From IMG/VR virus record IMGVR_UViG_2698536552_000015: a stretch of DNA of 14,019 bases; one strand, 5' to 3'. Made by a program: the position numbers and the translations under genes. The first letter of the stretch is position 1. The number at the start of each line of letters is the position of its first letter. Below the pieces are notes generated by a model. That model searched no databases. It saw nothing but the letters and a program-made list of their open reading frames with translations, and had not been told where the DNA came from. This DNA comes from a virus. Taxonomy: Duplodnaviria > Heunggongvirae > Uroviricota > Caudoviricetes. Shown in pieces: positions 1,553 through 13,627 of the stretch.

Positions 1553-1741
1553 TCACGAGGACTGAAGTTTCTCGCAATTAAAATTTATCAGTTTTACTTT
1601 CTGCTCTCTGGAAACGCCTGCTTCTTTTTTACCTGAGAGCATTTTTTCGCATTCTGATTTCGTTAGTTTAGATTTTGAATATCTTGTCCAGTTAGTAGGA
1701 GTGCCACCTTCCTTTTCAATAGTGGCGGTAATTTTATACAT
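1553..1741 (-). CDS. ydaC: Small Rac prophage protein YdaC/RcbA-like (62 aa)
   Basis: ATG at 1741 (MYKITATIEKEGGTPTNWTRYSKSKLTKSECEKMLSGKKEAGVSREQKVKLINFNCEKLQSS) inside ORF 1553..1813. The start overlaps the 3' end of the ralR frame by 8 nt. Confidence 0.7.
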   Translation of the reverse strand: MYKITATIEKEGGTPTNWTRYSKSKLTKSECEKMLSGKKEAGVSREQKVKLINFNCEKLQSS

Positions 1742-1928
1742 GAACACCTCCATTATTATTTCCAGTGGTTCGTTTATTTCATCGTTCGAGTGCTTCTTTT
1801 TCACTTCCACCATAACCGGTTCGGGATTCGCATCCGTTACACTTCGCTCGGTAATATCCTGAAATGGCTTTCACCGTTACTGATGGACAACCACAAAATG
1901 GACATGGTTTAACATTGTCATATCTCAT
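1734..1928 (-). pseudogene. ralR: ralR-like gene (restriction alleviation / type I toxin) with an in-frame TGA at codon 50; 49-aa product if terminated, 64 codons if read through
   Basis: Hand translation of the minus strand from ATG 1926-1928: MRYDNVKPCPFCGCPSVTVKAISGYYRAKCNGCESRTGYGGSEKEALER, then TGA (plus 1779-1781), then in frame NKRTTGNNNGGVHV and TAA at 1734-1736. Absent from the ORF track because it is under 60 aa. The in-frame tail matches the RalR C-terminus as I recall it. Confidence 0.55.
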
Positions 1929-8245: not shown

Positions 8246-8500
8246 ATGAACCAGAAAACACTTGAAGATGTAATCAAAACTGTTCGCGTTTCTGTTGTGG
8301 CCGACGTTTGTGGTGTCAGCCAAAGAGCAATCTACAAATGGATGGATAACGGAAAATTGCCTCGCACAGAATATACCGGCGAAACAAATTACGCTGAAAA
8401 AATCGCTCATGCATCAAACGGATTATTTTCTGCTGATGTAATTTTAACTATTGGCAGAAATAAAACTACTACGAAAAAGCTGATGGGAGTTGATTCATGA
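8246..8500 (+). CDS. ydaS: Cro-like helix-turn-helix protein YdaS (84 aa)
   Basis: ATG at 8246 preceded by GAGG gives MNQKTLEDVIKTVRVSVVADVCGVSQRAIYKWMDNGKLPRTEY… with an HTH motif. Divergent from racR. Its stop overlaps the ydaT start as ATGA. Confidence 0.8.
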   Translation: MNQKTLEDVIKTVRVSVVADVCGVSQRAIYKWMDNGKLPRTEYTGETNYAEKIAHASNGLFSADVILTIGRNKTTTKKLMGVDS

Positions 8501-8919
8501 AAATCAAGCATGAGCACATCGAGTCAGTGTTGTTAGCCCTGGCAGCCGAAAAAGGGCAGGCATGGGTAGCCAATGCCATTACTGAAGAATATCTGCGCCA
8601 GGGGGGCGGCGAATTGCCCCTGGTACCAGGCAAGGACTGGAATAATCAGCAGAATATCTATCACCGTTGGTTGAAAGGTGAAACGAAAACGCAAAGAGAA
8701 AAAATTCAGAAGCTGATCCCAGCAATTCTGGCAATCCTTCCGCGCGAGCTGCGTCACCGACTCTGCATCNNNNNNNNNNNNNNNNNNNNNNNNNNNNNNN
8801 NNNNNNNNNNNNNNNNNNNNNNNNNNNNNNNNNNNNNNNNNNNNNNNNNNNNNNNNNNNNNNNNNNNNNNNNNNNNNNNNNNNNNNNNNNNNNNNNNNNN
8901 NNNNNNNNNNNNNNNNNNN
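8497..8919 (+). CDS. ydaT: YdaT-like protein; N-terminal 91 codons visible (8497..8769), 3' end hidden in an N run (end inferred from a recalled length of about 140 aa)
   Basis: MKIKHEHIESVLLALAAEKGQAWVANAITEEYLRQGGGELPLVPGKDWNNQQNIYHRWLKGETKTQREKIQKLIPAILAILPRELRHRLCI then N run. GGGAG Shine-Dalgarno upstream. Confidence 0.7.
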
Positions 8920-9030
8920 NNNNNNNNNNNNNNNNNNNNNNNNNNNNNNNNNNNNNNNNNNNNNNNNNNNNNNNNNNNNNNNNNNNNNNNNNNNNNNNNN
9001 NNNNNNNNNNNNNNNNNNNNNNNNNNNNNN
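8770..9030. other. N-masked run (261 nt), no sequence information
   Basis: Run of n in the input; hides the ydaT 3' end and ydaU 5' end. Confidence 0.99.
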
Positions 9031-9814
9031 TACCTGGCTGACACCATGCATTTGTCAGCAGAGGAGCATGGTGCGTATTTGTTGCTGATGTTCAATTACT
9101 GGCAAACAGGAAAGCCAATACCTAAAAACAGGCTGGCAAAAATTGCCCGTCTGACTAACGAGCGATGGGCTGATGTTGAACCATCCTTGCAGGAGTTTTT
9201 TTGCGATAACGGCGAGGAATGGGTGCATCTTCGGATTGAGGAAGATCTGGCATCANNNNNNNNNNNNNNNNNNNNNNNNNNNNNNNNNNNNNNNNNNNNN
9301 NNNNNNNNNNNNNNNNNNNNNNNNNNNNNNNNNNNNNNNNNNNNNNNNNNNNNNNNNNNNNNNNNNNNNNNNNNNNNNNNNNNNNNNNNNNNNNNNNNNN
9401 NNNNNNNNNNNNNNNNNNNNNNNNNNNNNNNNNNNNNNNNNNNNNNNNNNNNNNNNNNNNNNNNNNNNNNNNNNNNNNNNNNNNNNNNNNNNNNNNNNNN
9501 NNNNNAAAAAGTTTGACCCTCTGGATATTGCTTTGCCGAACTGGATTTCTGTCTCGCTTTGGCGTGAGTGGGTTGAATTTCGCCAGGCATTGCGAAAACC
9601 GATTCGAACGGAGCAGGGCGCTAACGGGGCGATACGGGAGCTGGAAAAATTCCGCCAGCAGGGTTTTTCACCTGAGCAGGTGATTCGACACAGCATCGCC
9701 AATGAATACCAGGGCTTGTTCGCGCCGAAAGGTGTTCGACCTGAGACGTTACTCCGACAGGTTAACACCGTCTCGTTACCGGATAGTGCGATCCCGCCAG
9801 GCTTCAGGGGGTAA
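8957..9814 (+). CDS. ydaU: DUF1376-type replication-associated protein YdaU-like; start inferred inside an N run, interrupted by a second N run
   Basis: Visible segments: 9031-9255 YLADTMHLSAEEHGAYLLLMFNYWQTGKPIPKNRLAKIARLTNERWADVEPSLQEFFCDNGEEWVHLRIEEDLAS (DUF1376-like motif), and 9506-9814 KKFDPLDIALPNWISVSLWREWVEFRQALRKPIRTEQGANGAIRELEKFRQQGFSPEQVIRHSIANEYQGLF…PPGFRG*. The two segments are in different frames (+1 across the 250-nt N run). Confidence 0.65.
9256..9505. other. N-masked run (250 nt)
   Basis: Run of n in the input, inside ydaU. Confidence 0.99.
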
Positions 9815-12020: not shown

Positions 12021-12707
12021 ATGACCCCAATAAACATATTTATGACAGTTGCTGATTTCAAACGGCCCAAATTGGAGCTCCCAAACGGGGCAAACAAACT
12101 ACTACTGCACTCTTGCTGTGCTCCATGTTCCGGTGAGGTGATGGAGGCGCTTCAGGCCTCGGGAATCGACTACACCATCTTTTTCTACAACCCGAACATT
12201 CATCCTCAGAAAGAGTATTTAATTCGTAAGGATGAGAATATTCGCTTTGCTGAACAACACGGCGTGCCGTTTATTGATGCTGATTACGACACAGACAACT
12301 GGTTTGAACGAGCCAAAGGAATGGAATGGGAGCCCGAACGAGGGATCCGTTGCACCATGTGTTTTGACATGCGTTTTGAGCGGACAGCGCTGTACGCCGC
12401 TGAAAATGGTTTCAGTGTGATCAGCAGTTCACTGGGCATTTCACGCTGGAAAAATATGCAGCAGGTTAACGACTGTGGGCGGCGAGCCGTCGCGCATTAT
12501 CCGGGCATGGTGTACTGGGATTATAACTGGCGCAAGCAGGGCGGCTCGTCCCGTATGATTGAAATCAGCAAGCGCGAAAAATTCTATCAGCAGGAATATT
12601 GTGGCTGTGTGTATTCTCTGCGCGATACCAATCTACACCGCAAATCTCAGGGACGCCCTCTTATCAAAATTGGTCAACTCCACTACGGTAAAGAAGAGAA
12701 GGAGTGA
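12021..12707 (+). CDS. queH: QueH-like epoxyqueuosine reductase (DUF208 family), 228 aa
   Basis: ORF track 12021..12707. Motifs as I recall for QueH/DUF208: [23 protein letters not shown], and C-terminal YCGCVYSL. No obvious Shine-Dalgarno; the true start may be the ATG at 12042. Confidence 0.65.
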
Positions 12708-12728: not shown

Positions 12729-12758
12729 TTGATTTCATATTGGCGAGGTAAGTAGAAT
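12729..12758 (+). promoter_or_regulatory. Candidate sigma70 promoter of the hok/mok mRNA (TTGATT-N18-TAGAAT)
   Basis: -35 at 12729-12734, -10 at 12753-12758. The predicted start site (about 12762-12765) coincides with the 5' element that is complementary to the mRNA 3' end. Confidence 0.4.
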
Positions 12759-12819
12759 GACTGCGGGTGCTTGAGGCTATCTGCTTCAGGCATGAACACC
12801 AAAAGGCAGATAGAGAAAA

Positions 12820-12886
12820 GCCCCAGTTAACATTACGCGTCCGGCAAGACGCTTAACATTAATCTGAGGCCAATTTCATGCTTTGC
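12820..12886 (-). ncRNA. Candidate Sok-like antisense RNA overlapping the mok translation start (coordinates approximate)
   Basis: Minus-strand promoter-like hexamers TTGCCT (complement of 12916-12921), 17-nt spacer, TAACCT (complement of 12893-12898). Position relative to mok/hok matches the known hok/sok organisation. The 3' end is not defined. Confidence 0.25.
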
Positions 12887-13090
12887 ACATGTAGGTTAGC
12901 CTCTTACATGCCGAAAGGCAAGGAGAAGCAGGCTATGAAGCAGCAAAAGGCGATGTTAATCGCCCTGATCGTCATCTGTTTAACCGTCATAGTGACGGCA
13001 CTGGTAACGAGGAAAGACCTCTGTGAGGTACGAATCCGAACCGGCCAGACGGAGGTCGCTGTCTTCGTAGACTACGAATCCAGGAAGTAA
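12878..13090 (+). CDS. Mok-like reading frame (70 aa): in-frame N-terminal extension of hok, as in mokC/hokC
   Basis: ATG at 12878 in the same frame as hok (MLCTCRLASYMPKGKEKQA + Hok), the same arrangement as the chromosomal mokC/hokC pair as recalled. Confidence 0.5.
   Translation: MLCTCRLASYMPKGKEKQAMKQQKAMLIALIVICLTVIVTALVTRKDLCEVRIRTGQTEVAVFVDYESRK
12935..13090 (+). CDS. Hok/Gef-family type I toxin (51 aa), HokC/HokD-like membrane peptide
   Basis: MKQQKAMLIALIVICLTVIVTALVTRKDLCEVRIRTGQTEVAVFVDYESRK carries the family signature LVTRKDLCEV-IRTGQTEVAVF. AAGGAGAAG Shine-Dalgarno upstream. Confidence 0.9.
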   Translation: MKQQKAMLIALIVICLTVIVTALVTRKDLCEVRIRTGQTEVAVFVDYESRK

Positions 13091-13098
13091 GAGTGACC

Positions 13099-13126
13099 GG
13101 GCGGGGAGCTGATCCCATCCCCGCCC
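13099..13126 (+). other. Perfect 9-bp GC-rich stem-loop (GGGCGGGGA-N10-TCCCCGCCC) 9 nt after the hok stop
   Basis: Read directly from the sequence; part of the structured hok mRNA 3' region. Confidence 0.5.
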
Positions 13127-13166
13127 ACCTCTGATGTGTCAGGCATCCTCAACGCACCCGCACTTA

Positions 13167-13216
13167 ACCCGCCCATCGCTGTGATCTCTCAGCGTTTCGG
13201 CGGGTTTTTTGTTGTT
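13167..13216 (+). terminator. Rho-independent terminator of the hok transcript
   Basis: Outer stem ACCCGCC/GGCGGGT (13167-13173, 13199-13205) with inner stem CGCTG/CAGCG, followed by TTTTTTGTTGTTT. Confidence 0.55.
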
Positions 13217-13230
13217 TATTTCCGGTGAAT

Positions 13231-13258
13231 TTGATTCGCGCACCTTCGCAGATAGAAT
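13231..13258 (+). promoter_or_regulatory. Candidate sigma70 promoter for the downstream small-gene operon (TTGATT-N16-TAGAAT)
   Basis: -35 at 13231-13236, -10 at 13253-13258; same hexamers as the candidate hok promoter. Confidence 0.35.
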
Positions 13259-13339: not shown

Positions 13340-13627
13340 ATGAAAATCGAAGAATTGCGTGAAATTTTTAGTGAAAATGGCCTCTATGCTGTGCGCGTTG
13401 AGAATGGAGCGATTGTCAGCCATTGCCGCATTAGATGTTTGCAATCTCAACAAAGGAAGAGCGGTGCTGTGTTATTTTATTTTTGTAATGGACTTCTGAC
13501 GGACGGTTTTATTTTGCGTGAGGACGAATTTGTCACATCATTACGGGTTTTGAAAGAGATTGGTTTTAAGGCTGGTTTTCTGCTTTTGCTGAAGAATAAA
13601 CTCATCTACAATCTTGAGCAGGATTGA
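13340..13627 (+). CDS. Hypothetical protein (95 aa)
   Basis: ORF track 13340..13627; GGAAGG 9 nt upstream of the ATG; stop overlaps the next ORF. No family recognised. Confidence 0.45.
   Translation: MKIEELREIFSENGLYAVRVENGAIVSHCRIRCLQSQQRKSGAVLFYFCNGLLTDGFILREDEFVTSLRVLKEIGFKAGFLLLLKNKLIYNLEQD

What the first reader, a model, noticed from the sequence alone, without database searches (positions are those of the whole stretch)
12729..13216. Complete hok/mok type I toxin locus with a 15-bp 5'/3' mRNA complementarity (tac/fbi-like)
Seen in sequence: a Hok-family toxin (12935-13090) with an in-frame Mok-like extension from 12878; a candidate promoter TTGATT-N18-TAGAAT; a 5' element TGCGGGTGCTTGAGG (12762-12776) complementary to CCTCAACGCACCCGCA (13147-13162) near the 3' end with a single bulged C; an 8-bp leader hairpin (12777-12784 with 12806-12813); a 9-bp GC stem after the stop; and an intrinsic terminator. 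Long-range 5'/3' pairing that keeps full-length hok mRNA inert is a hallmark of functional hok/sok loci, so this looks like a live module rather than a decayed remnant. Hok/sok is known to exclude some phages, so in a prophage it may act as an abortive-infection or stabilisation module.
Basis: partly seen in the sequence, partly recalled or inferred. Interest (0 to 1): 0.6.

Follow-up and report, generated by a model that had tools for sequence, protein, structure and literature searches.

The report
Intact prophage hok/mok/sok toxin-antitoxin locus
This is an intact copy of a well-known small-toxin/antisense-RNA killing module (hok/sok), almost identical to the hokW-sokW module of Shiga-toxin phages that has been tested in the laboratory, so it is real but ordinary.

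Summary
Window 12729-13216 holds a complete hok/mok/sok type I toxin-antitoxin locus in the nin region of a Rac-like lambdoid prophage.

- **Toxin:** Hok is 51 aa (Pfam HOK_GEF, 4e-23) and 50/51 identical to HokW of Stx2 phage 933W/Sp5.
- **DNA match:** the sequence is 92% identical to the annotated hokW/mokW/sokW locus.
- **Leader:** Rfam RF01794 matches 12765-12940 at 117 bits.
- **End pairing:** the full-length mRNA fold pairs GGGUGCUUGAGG (12765-12776) with CCUCAA-C-GCACCC (13147-13159). Across 80 homologues 95% of these pairs are kept, with compensatory U-A to C-G changes.
- **Correction:** only 12 bp plus a bulge are supported. The extra TGC/GCA lies upstream of the inferred start and is not conserved.
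- **Antisense gene:** Sok maps to 12886→12816 on the minus strand. Its -10 hexamer is the one whose mutation abolished antitoxin activity in hokW-sokW.

About 87% of complete E. coli genomes carry related copies, annotated hokD. For the orthologue, published experiments show toxicity, antitoxin function and help with lysis on prophage induction. They do not show abortive infection.

Verdict: observation confirmed, interpretation supported, already known, low interest.

The parts
12729..12758 (+). hok promoter candidate: -35 TTGATT (12729-12734), 18-nt spacer, -10 TAGAAT (12753-12758)
   Evidence: Consensus scan, 9/12 matches. The -10 (TAnnAT) is kept in homologues at a fixed distance from the GGG start. 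The -35 lies outside the conserved block, which begins near 12746.
12765..13212 (+). Predicted full-length hok mRNA (about 448 nt). The start at G12765 is inferred, not mapped.
   Evidence: The Rfam model starts at 12765. MFE is -191.5 kcal/mol, z = -9.4. The fold is 89% paired across 80 homologues against about 40% for slid controls.
12765..12776 (+). tac element (GGGUGCUUGAGG), the 5' arm of the end pairing
   Evidence: Pairs with 13147-13159 in the MFE fold. 95% of cells are paired, with compensatory U-A to C-G in 11 sequences. Per-sequence variants are listed.
12783..12793 (+). Segment just downstream of tac that pairs with it in the nascent transcript (metastable hairpin)
   Evidence: The fold of the first 40 nt gives a tac hairpin of -17.1 kcal/mol. 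This matches the metastable structure described for R1 hok (PMC9841398).
12777..12813 (+). Leader hairpin: 10-bp stem 12777-12786 with 12804-12813, with a variable loop
   Evidence: Helix 2 has 4 pairs with changes on both sides and is 94.9% paired. The loop 12794-12804 is a variability hotspot.
12818..12826 (+). ucb / anti-SD (AAGCCCCAG). It masks the mok SD in the full-length fold and pairs with tac in the open form.
   Evidence: Partners are listed. Enforcing the tac/ucb stem costs only 2.2-2.7 kcal/mol over the MFE of the truncated RNA. The first stem of the Rfam consensus is this pairing.
12866..12869 (+). mok Shine-Dalgarno GAGG, 8 nt upstream of the mok ATG
   Evidence: Invariant in the 53 hokD/W-type sequences. 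Paired with 12821-12824 in the full-length fold.
12878..13090 (+). mok reading frame: 70 codons, in frame with hok, sharing its stop codon
   Evidence: ORF list. The ATG is kept in 76 of 80 homologues, and the frame matches hok in 58 of 80. mokW is annotated at the same place in 933W.
12816..12886 (-). Predicted Sok antisense RNA (about 71 nt): 9-nt single-stranded 5' tail, long hairpin, U-rich tail
   Evidence: Coordinates are transferred from the sokW annotation of AF125520 through alignment A2. The fold is -30.2 kcal/mol, z = -4.9. The ends are not mapped experimentally here.
12893..12921 (-). Sok promoter: -35 TTGCCT (12921 to 12916), 17-nt spacer, -10 TAACCT (12898 to 12893)
   Evidence: Read from the sequence. 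The consensus scan missed it because the -10 matches only 3 of 6. The -35 is invariant and the -10 nearly so (two positions vary) in 53 relatives. The same -10 was mutated to make the sokW promoter-less construct (primer YO-421; result).
12899..12907 (+). dcb-like box (GCCUCUUAC). It can pair with the mok SD in the open form and pairs with the hok stop region in the full-length fold.
   Evidence: Third hairpin of the Rfam consensus. Pairs with 13087-13093. The helix 8 core never varies or varies on one side only. The name follows PMC9841398.
12935..13090 (+). hok toxin gene (51 aa), with SD AAGGAG at 12920-12925
   Evidence: Pfam HOK_GEF 4.3e-23. PHROG 251, 'MokW-like host killing', 1e-32. 50/51 identical to HokW and 46/51 to K-12-type HokD.
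13073..13076 (+). TACG motif at the Tyr47 codon, a candidate TadA A-to-I editing site (Tyr to Cys)
   Evidence: T, A, C and G at these positions are invariant in all 80 aligned homologues. The motif, and editing of hokC/D/E at the equivalent residue, are described in PMC5630033 and PMC12214031. Editing was not tested here.
13099..13126 (+). GC-rich 9-bp hairpin after the stop codon, the likely 3' end protector of the processed mRNA
   Evidence: Perfect inverted repeat. The role is inferred from R1, where mutations in the last stem-loop of the truncated mRNA abolish function (PMC9841398).
13147..13159 (+). fbi element (CCUCAA-C-GCACCC; C13153 is bulged), the 3' arm of the end pairing
   Evidence: The bulged base varies (C, T or A) and is absent in Photorhabdus copies.
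13166..13212 (+). Intrinsic terminator: 8-bp GC-rich stem with an inner hairpin, then a T run
   Evidence: Inverted repeat I14. The fold is -24.2 kcal/mol. Compared with the common AACCCGCTTCGGCGGGTTTTT of relatives, this allele has about 21 extra nt in the loop.

Best explanation
The region is an intact hok/mok/sok type I toxin-antitoxin module. It is an allele of the hokW-sokW / hokD group carried by lambdoid prophages, and it most likely works as the plasmid R1 paradigm does.

1. A constitutive promoter makes a stable mRNA of about 448 nt starting near G12765.
2. While the transcript is being made, the 5' tac element is held in a local hairpin.
3. In the finished transcript, tac (12765-12776) pairs with fbi (13147-13159). 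In the same fold, the mok Shine-Dalgarno is masked by the ucb box, the mok start and Sok target are masked by 13134-13146, and the hok start region is masked by the 3' part of the coding sequence. The full-length RNA is therefore neither translated nor bound by Sok.
4. Slow 3' trimming back to the GC hairpin (13099-13126) removes fbi. tac then re-pairs with ucb, and the mok start region opens.
5. The unstable 71-nt Sok RNA (12886 to 12816, minus strand) binds the opened RNA and triggers its decay. When Sok synthesis stops, mok is translated, hok is translated by coupling, and the 51-aa Hok peptide damages the inner membrane.

What is shown here: the sequence elements, the predicted alternative folds, the covariation, and near-identity to a tested orthologue. 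What is inferred: the transcript ends, the processing, the coupling, and toxicity of this allele.

By analogy with hokW-sokW, the most likely biological role is loss of Sok on prophage induction, with Hok helping lysis and phage release. This role is much less certain than the mechanism; I put it at roughly 0.4-0.5.
For: - **Toxin family and near-identity:**
- **Rfam RF01794 match** to the leader with its structure, 117 bits against a gathering score of 59.
- **Full-length fold with end pairing,** z = -9.4.
- **Covariation of tac/fbi:** 95% of pairs kept. U-A to C-G changes occur in 11 sequences, and GAGG/CCUC changes to GAGA/UCUC in Photorhabdus.
- **Covariation of the whole fold:** 38 pairs with changes on both sides, and 89% paired against about 40% for slid controls.
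- **Masking of the mok SD, mok AUG and hok translation start** in the full-length fold.
- **Alternative conformers:** the nascent hairpin and the tac/ucb stem lie within 2-3 kcal/mol of the best fold.
- **Sok:** promoter, start and fold come. They map onto the sokW annotation in 933W.
- **Experiments on the orthologue** (92% nt, 98% aa identity): HokW is toxic. sokW neutralises it, and neutralisation is lost when the -10 is mutated. sokW disappears on RecA-dependent induction. Deleting the locus halves phage release (PMC8621323).
- **R1 model and element names:** PMC9841398.
Against: - No transcript data exist for this locus. The transcription starts, the 3' processing and Sok expression are all inferred.
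- On this sequence alone the 5'/3' duplex is only about p = 0.02 against shuffled 3' UTRs.
- The open (tac/ucb) form is not the computed minimum for the truncated RNA; it is 2-3 kcal/mol worse.
- The hok -35 is not conserved among relatives.
- Some chromosomal hok loci (hokA, hokB, hokC) failed to give post-segregational killing (cited in the bioRxiv survey).
- The lysis-helper role was shown for a copy at a different position in the phage genome. The effect was only two-fold.
Confidence: 0.9

Rival explanations
1. The locus looks structurally intact but is physiologically silent. It would be a domesticated or neutral passenger that is never activated, as reported for several chromosomal hok loci.
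For: [quoted passage not shown]
- The hok -35 is weak and not conserved.
- Deleting hokW-sokW had no effect under normal growth and only a two-fold effect on phage yield.
Against: - All regulatory elements are conserved, with compensatory changes across many copies. This implies selection on the RNA.
- The near-identical HokW is produced and toxic on induction.
- 42 of 45 Hok homologues tested were toxic.
Confidence: 0.15
2. The mechanism is the same but the main role differs. The module would stabilise the prophage by killing cells that lose it, or act as an abortive-infection defence against other phages.
For: - R1 hok/sok on a high-copy plasmid reduced T4 plating by 42% and reduced plaque size (cited in PMC8621323).
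- hok genes are about four-fold enriched in prophages.
- Type I TAs are cited as involved in prophage maintenance.
Against: - Hok, Mok and the two neighbouring proteins match no PADLOC defence model.
- The only direct experiments on the orthologue show a positive effect on the carrier phage, not exclusion of others.
- Nothing was tested for this allele.
Confidence: 0.25
3. The 5'/3' complementarity is a chance match in a GC-rich 3' UTR and has no regulatory role.
For: 43 of 2000 shuffled 3' UTRs bind the 5' end at least as well.
Against: The 12-bp core is kept in 80 homologues from Escherichia to Photorhabdus and Erwinia, with compensatory changes on both arms and a variable bulge. The homology block among prophage copies ends just after fbi. 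The same pairing was established experimentally for R1 hok.
Confidence: 0.02

Closest known systems
hokW-mokW-sokW of Stx2 phage 933W / Sakai prophage Sp5 (AF125520; Takada et al. 2021, PMC8621323)
   Same: - 92% nucleotide identity from the -10 box to just past fbi.
- Hok is 50/51 identical.
- The mok frame is the same.
- The Sok -10 hexamer is the same, and the Sok span is 71 nt.
- The Sok-target hairpin carries the same 19-20-nt extension.
   Different: - One residue differs (R50 here, E in HokW).
- The Sok 5' tail / target loop differs: CCAATTTCATGCTTTGCAC here against CTCAATCCATGCTGAACAC.
- The sequence upstream of the -10 and the terminator differ.
- The genomic position differs. Here the locus sits in the nin region between QueH and a NinB-like gene, co-directional with early genes. 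In 933W it is in a cluster near the right end of the phage genome.
hokD (relF) of E. coli K-12 Qin prophage
   Same: The toxin is 46/51 identical. The 3' UTR, including the GC hairpin, fbi and a terminator, is homologous. RefSeq annotates the window's toxin as HokD.
   Different: K-12 hokD matches only from window 12921 onward. It lacks the hok promoter, tac, ucb, the mok start and the Sok gene. It is the truncated remnant; the window holds the complete form.
hok/sok of plasmid R1 (the paradigm; Rfam RF01794)
   Same: The architecture and named elements match: tac, fbi, ucb, dcb, mok and Sok. The leader fits the Rfam covariance model at 117 bits. The predicted conformers match the published folding pathway.
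   Different: HokW, the near-identical orthologue, is only 44% identical to R1 Hok. The Sok-target hairpin is longer (a 16-nt insertion relative to the model). The mRNA is about 448 nt. The replicon is a prophage, not a plasmid.
hokC (gef) and other chromosomal hok loci of Escherichia; hok loci of Photorhabdus, Erwinia and Kluyvera
   Same: They share the leader, mok/hok arrangement, tac/fbi pairing, TACG motif and GC hairpin.
   Different: They are 65-80% identical at the protein level and lack the hairpin extension. In 18 of the 80 aligned homologues mok is out of frame with hok. Photorhabdus copies have no bulge in the tac/fbi helix.

Membership tests
[quoted passage not shown] | Small Hok/Gef membrane toxin ORF of about 50 aa | tested here: met
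   51-aa ORF 12935-13090. Pfam HOK_GEF scores 81 bits against a cut-off of 22. PHROG 251 matches.
[quoted passage not shown] | Overlapping mok reading frame that starts upstream of hok and has its own Shine-Dalgarno | tested here: met
   ATG at 12878 with GAGG at 12866-12869. The ATG is kept in 76 of 80 homologues. The SD is invariant in the 53 hokD/W-type sequences. Translational coupling itself cannot be tested here.
[quoted passage not shown] | cis-encoded antisense Sok RNA gene, complementary to the mok translation start, with its own promoter | tested here: met
   Promoter hexamers at 12921-12916 and 12898-12893 are conserved in 53 relatives. The predicted 71-nt RNA has a 5' tail, a hairpin and a U tail. 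It maps onto the annotated sokW, and the -10 is the one mutated experimentally. All of this is in silico; expression was not shown.
[quoted passage not shown] | tac/fbi pairing of the mRNA 5' and 3' ends | tested here: met
   12 bp plus a bulge in the MFE fold. 95% of cells are paired, with compensatory changes in 80 homologues.
[quoted passage not shown] | ucb masks the mok SD in the full-length RNA, and an alternative tac/ucb stem forms in the processed RNA | tested here: met
   SD-ucb pairing appears in the full-length fold. Enforcing the tac/ucb stem costs 2.2-2.7 kcal/mol. The Rfam consensus structure is matched. These are predictions only.
[quoted passage not shown] | Slow 3' exonucleolytic processing to a translatable, Sok-sensitive mRNA | not testable with these tools
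   A protective GC hairpin (13099-13126) lies between the stop codon and fbi, as expected. The processing itself needs RNA analysis.
[quoted passage not shown] | Hok expression kills or arrests the cell, and Sok neutralises it | not testable with these tools
   Shown for HokW/sokW, which is 50/51 identical. Not shown for this allele.
hokD/hokW subgroup of lambdoid prophages | At least 90% Hok identity to HokD/HokW, the extended Sok-target hairpin, and a prophage location | tested here: met
   98% identity to HokW and 90% to HokD. The 19-20-nt hairpin extension is shared by 53 aligned copies. The locus lies in a Rac-like prophage, with a NinB-like gene downstream.
Truncated hokD (relF) remnant as in E. 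coli K-12 | Toxin gene and 3' UTR present, but no hok promoter, tac, mok start or Sok gene | tested here: not met
   The window has all upstream elements. K-12 aligns only from 12921 onward. The window is therefore not the remnant form.
TadA A-to-I edited hok mRNAs | Tyr codon TAC within a TACG motif at the position of the second conserved cysteine | tested here: met
   TACG at 13073-13076 (Tyr47) is invariant in 80 homologues. The motif is defined in PMC5630033. Editing itself was not tested, and A13074 is unpaired in the predicted fold.
Catalogued anti-phage defence systems (PADLOC) | Protein matches a defence-system model | tested here: not met
   Hok, Mok and the two neighbouring proteins have no PADLOC match at E <= 0.01.

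The most novel reading that the evidence does not exclude
In this prophage the hok module lies inside the rightward early (nin) operon. It is co-directional with that operon and starts 22 nt after QueH with no terminator in between. Read-through transcription on induction could therefore run into the convergent Sok promoter and shut it off. That would be a built-in switch explaining the unexplained RecA-dependent loss of Sok seen for hokW-sokW.

In addition, the Sok 5' tail and its target loop (12871-12892) are the most variable part of an otherwise conserved leader. This could give each co-resident prophage a private antitoxin that does not cross-protect.
Probability: 0.15. Interest if true: 0.4.

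Novelty: already known. Interest (0 to 1): 0.1.

Why it matters
It matters little for discovery.

- The module family has been studied since the 1980s.
- The same locus type has been annotated in phage 933W (AF125520) as hokW/mokW/sokW.
- Its orthologue was tested experimentally in 2021.
- Related copies are present in about 87% of complete E. coli genomes.

The result is still useful for annotation. RefSeq labels only the toxin CDS (as hokD) and omits mok, Sok and the RNA elements. This allele is the complete form, unlike the K-12 hokD remnant. The window therefore carries two type I toxin-antitoxin systems, ralR/RalA and hok/sok, in one Rac-like prophage.

Tried and rejected
- **The 15-16-bp version of the end pairing.** The outer TGC/GCA pairs lie upstream of the inferred start and are broken in most distant homologues. 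I kept only the 12-bp core.
- **Simple consensus scans.** The scan found the hok promoter but missed both the Sok promoter (its -10 matches only 3 of 6) and the terminator (long loop). Those two rest on comparative evidence and folding instead.
- **Single-sequence significance of the duplex.** It is only p of about 0.02, so it is not used as the main argument.
- **The MFE of the truncated mRNA.** It did not give the published open form directly. Constrained folding was needed to show that the open form is within 2-3 kcal/mol.
- **Decayed remnant like K-12 hokD.** Rejected by alignment.
- **Defence-system membership.** There is no PADLOC match.
- **Source genome.** No complete E. coli genome covers 80% or more of the 14-kb window. 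The best is 79%, so the prophage is a mosaic. The one complete genome with a 100% match to the hok locus has a prophage disrupted by IS elements.
- **Not run.** The homologous-protein search, structure prediction and fold search were judged unnecessary for a 51-aa peptide of a well-defined family.

Full report
**1. What is there**

Window 12729-13216 sits between a QueH homologue (12021-12707; Pfam QueH 2e-65) and a 95-aa PHROG-340 ORF (13340-13627), which is followed by a NinB/Orf-like gene. The rest of the window is a Rac-like lambdoid prophage. It carries integrase, excisionase, ralR with its RalA sRNA, recT, recE, sieB, HTH repressor-like genes, YdaT/DUF1376 and IstB-like replication genes, and DUF977. 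The hok locus is therefore in the nin region and runs in the same direction as the rightward early genes.

**2. The observation**

- **ORFs.** The 51-aa ORF 12935-13090 is a Hok/Gef toxin (Pfam 4e-23; PHROG 251 'MokW-like host killing'). A 70-codon frame from ATG 12878 runs in frame into it.
- **Promoter.** TTGATT-N18-TAGAAT lies at 12729-12758.
- **Repeats.** The inverted-repeat search recovers the 9-bp perfect match 12762-12770 with 13154-13162. It also recovers the GC stem 13099-13107 with 13118-13126 and the terminator stem 13166-13173 with 13199-13206.
- **Fold.** Folding 12765-13213 as RNA gives -191.5 kcal/mol, z = -9.4 against shuffles. In that fold 12765-12776 pairs with 13147-13159 and C13153 is bulged.
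- **Chance.** On this sequence alone the end duplex is only moderately unusual. 43 of 2000 dinucleotide-shuffled 3' UTRs bind the 5' end as well, because the 3' UTR is GC-rich.

**3. Comparative evidence**

I fetched 127 related loci from genomes and viral contigs and aligned 80 distinct full-length copies.

- **tac/fbi helix.** 95% of cells are paired, against 32-50% when the 3' arm is slid. U-A is replaced by C-G in 11 sequences. Read sequence by sequence, Photorhabdus copies have GGGCGCUUGAGA with UCUCAAGCGCCC where E. coli has GGGUGCUUGAGG with CCUCAA-C-GCACCC. Other copies show G-U and A-U replacements. The bulged base is C, T, A or absent.
- **The 3-bp extension.** They also lie upstream of the start inferred from the -10 spacing and from the first position of the Rfam model. 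The supported helix is 12 bp plus a bulge.
- **Whole fold.** The full-length fold is 89% paired against about 40% for slid controls. It has 38 pairs with changes on both sides.
- **Conserved block.** Among prophage copies, homology typically runs from about 12746 to about 13172, that is, from the -10 box to just past fbi. The flanks differ, as expected for a self-contained cassette. At least two recurrent contexts exist: a nin region with a NinB-like gene downstream, and a 933W-type cluster.

**4. The RNA switch**

The element names and the model below come from the R1 literature (PMC9841398).

- **Leader model.** Rfam RF01794 matches 12765-12940 on the plus strand at 117 bits, against a gathering score of 59. 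There is a 16-nt insertion in the second hairpin.
- **Closed form.** In the predicted full-length fold, the mok SD (GAGG, 12866-12869) pairs with the ucb box at 12820-12824. The mok AUG and the adjacent Sok-target segment (12878-12890) pair with 13134-13146, just 5' of fbi. The hok SD and AUG pair with the 3' part of the coding region.
- **Nascent form.** The first 40 nt fold into a tac hairpin of -17.1 kcal/mol.
- **Open form.** In RNAs truncated after the GC hairpin, the tac/ucb stem, which frees the mok SD, is only 2.2-2.7 kcal/mol above the minimum.

All three conformers of the published pathway are thus available to this sequence. These are predictions, not measurements.

**5. The antisense gene**

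On the minus strand, TTGCCT (12921 to 12916), a 17-nt spacer and TAACCT (12898 to 12893) precede a G at 12886. The consensus scan misses this promoter because the -10 matches only 3 of 6 positions. However, the -35 is invariant and the -10 nearly so (two of its positions vary) in 53 hokD/W-type copies. The 75-nt stretch from 12886 to 12812, which contains the predicted 71-nt RNA, folds into a 9-nt single-stranded tail, a long hairpin and a U-rich tail (-30.2 kcal/mol, z = -4.9).

**6. It is already known**

- **Annotated orthologue.** The region is 92% identical to the locus annotated hokW, mokW and 'SokW antisense RNA' in phage 933W (AF125520). Transferring that annotation places Sok at 12886 to 12816.
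- **Protein identity.** Hok is 50/51 identical to HokW and 46/51 identical to K-12-type HokD.
- **Frequency.** Related DNA is found in 4713 of 5426 complete E. coli genomes, at a median of 2 places per genome, annotated hokD.
- **The K-12 remnant.** K-12 itself matches only from 12921 onward, which is the known truncated hokD/relF.
- **Experiments.** Takada et al. 2021 (PMC8621323) showed that HokW arrests growth and that sokW neutralises it. Mutating the sokW -10, the same AGGTTA as window 12893-12898 on the plus strand (primer YO-421), removes protection. sokW RNA disappears and HokW appears on RecA-dependent induction. Deleting the locus delays growth arrest and halves Sp5 phage release.
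- **Survey.** A 2026 bioRxiv survey reports Hok in nearly 80% of Enterobacteriaceae genomes. It also reports a four-fold enrichment in prophages and toxicity for 42 of 45 homologues tested.

**7. Function**

The mechanism is very probably the R1-type one: end pairing keeps the mRNA inert, 3' trimming activates it, Sok removes the active form, and Hok is made when Sok runs out.

The biological role is less certain. The only direct data for this subgroup point to help with lysis on induction. [quoted passage not shown]

A speculative point is specific to this window. hok lies inside the early rightward operon with no terminator upstream. Induced read-through could therefore interfere with the convergent Sok promoter.

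**8. Verdict**

The finding is an already known module type, and interest is low.

Noticed in passing
window 1553-1813 (- strand ORF) and 1557-1735 (+ strand RNA): A second type I toxin-antitoxin pair lies in the same prophage. RalA sRNA matches Rfam RF02694 at 225 bits over its full length. It is antisense to an 86-aa DUF1187 (RalR-type) ORF.
   Followed up: partly
window 12021-12707: An epoxyqueuosine reductase QueH homologue (Pfam 2e-65; PHROG 3217, unknown function) sits in the nin region, ending 22 nt before the hok -35. A lone queuosine-pathway enzyme in a lambdoid prophage is unexplained. The QueH-hok adjacency recurs in other genomes.
   Followed up: partly
window 12871-12892: The Sok 5' tail / target-loop segment is the most variable part of the leader among 53 hokD/W-type copies, reaching 2 bits per position at 12882-12884. 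The flanking mok ATG, the SD and the Sok promoter are nearly invariant. Co-resident copies in one genome differ here (for example L002 against L005 and L008). This may limit cross-talk between Sok RNAs.
   Followed up: partly
window 13073-13076: A TACG motif lies at the Tyr47 codon of hok and is invariant, third codon positions included, in all 80 aligned homologues. It matches the TadA A-to-I editing site (Tyr to Cys) reported for hokC, hokD and hokE. The local sequence is CUACGAA.
   Followed up: partly
window 13166-13212: The terminator of this allele has about 21 extra nucleotides (an inner CGCUG/CAGCG hairpin) in the loop, compared with the common AACCCGCTTCGGCGGGTTTTT of related copies.
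   Followed up: partly
window 13231-13258: A second promoter-like site has the same hexamers as the hok promoter (TTGATT-N16-TAGAAT). It lies about 80 nt upstream of the 95-aa PHROG-340 ORF at 13340-13627.
   Followed up: no
window 12765-12940: The Rfam family RF01794, named 'sok antitoxin', matches the plus strand, which is the hok mRNA leader up to the hok start. It does not match the strand that would encode Sok. A hit to this family marks the locus, not the antisense RNA's strand.
   Followed up: yes
L014, L019 (genome contigs) and H61 (phages): E. coli-type hok loci appear on very short contigs labelled Acinetobacter idrijaensis (275 bp; Hok 89% identical at the protein level) and Xanthomonas pisi (431 bp; Hok 100% identical). 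One also appears in a phage record labelled Actinobacillus phage vB_Apl-pPE4 (91.7% DNA identity). These look like contamination or misassignment.
   Followed up: no
window 8497-9516: A single 339-aa ORF carries both a YdaT_toxin match (residues 49-89) and a DUF1376 match (178-252). In the related prophage of strain FDAARGOS_943, YdaT and the next gene are annotated separately. This could be a fusion, or a difference in start choice or frame.
   Followed up: no
L015 (E. coli K-12-like hokC locus): This hokC copy has no recognisable fbi sequence in the aligned 3' region, unlike hokC copies of other Escherichia species. From my own knowledge, K-12 hokC is disrupted downstream by an IS element, which would explain this.
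   Followed up: no
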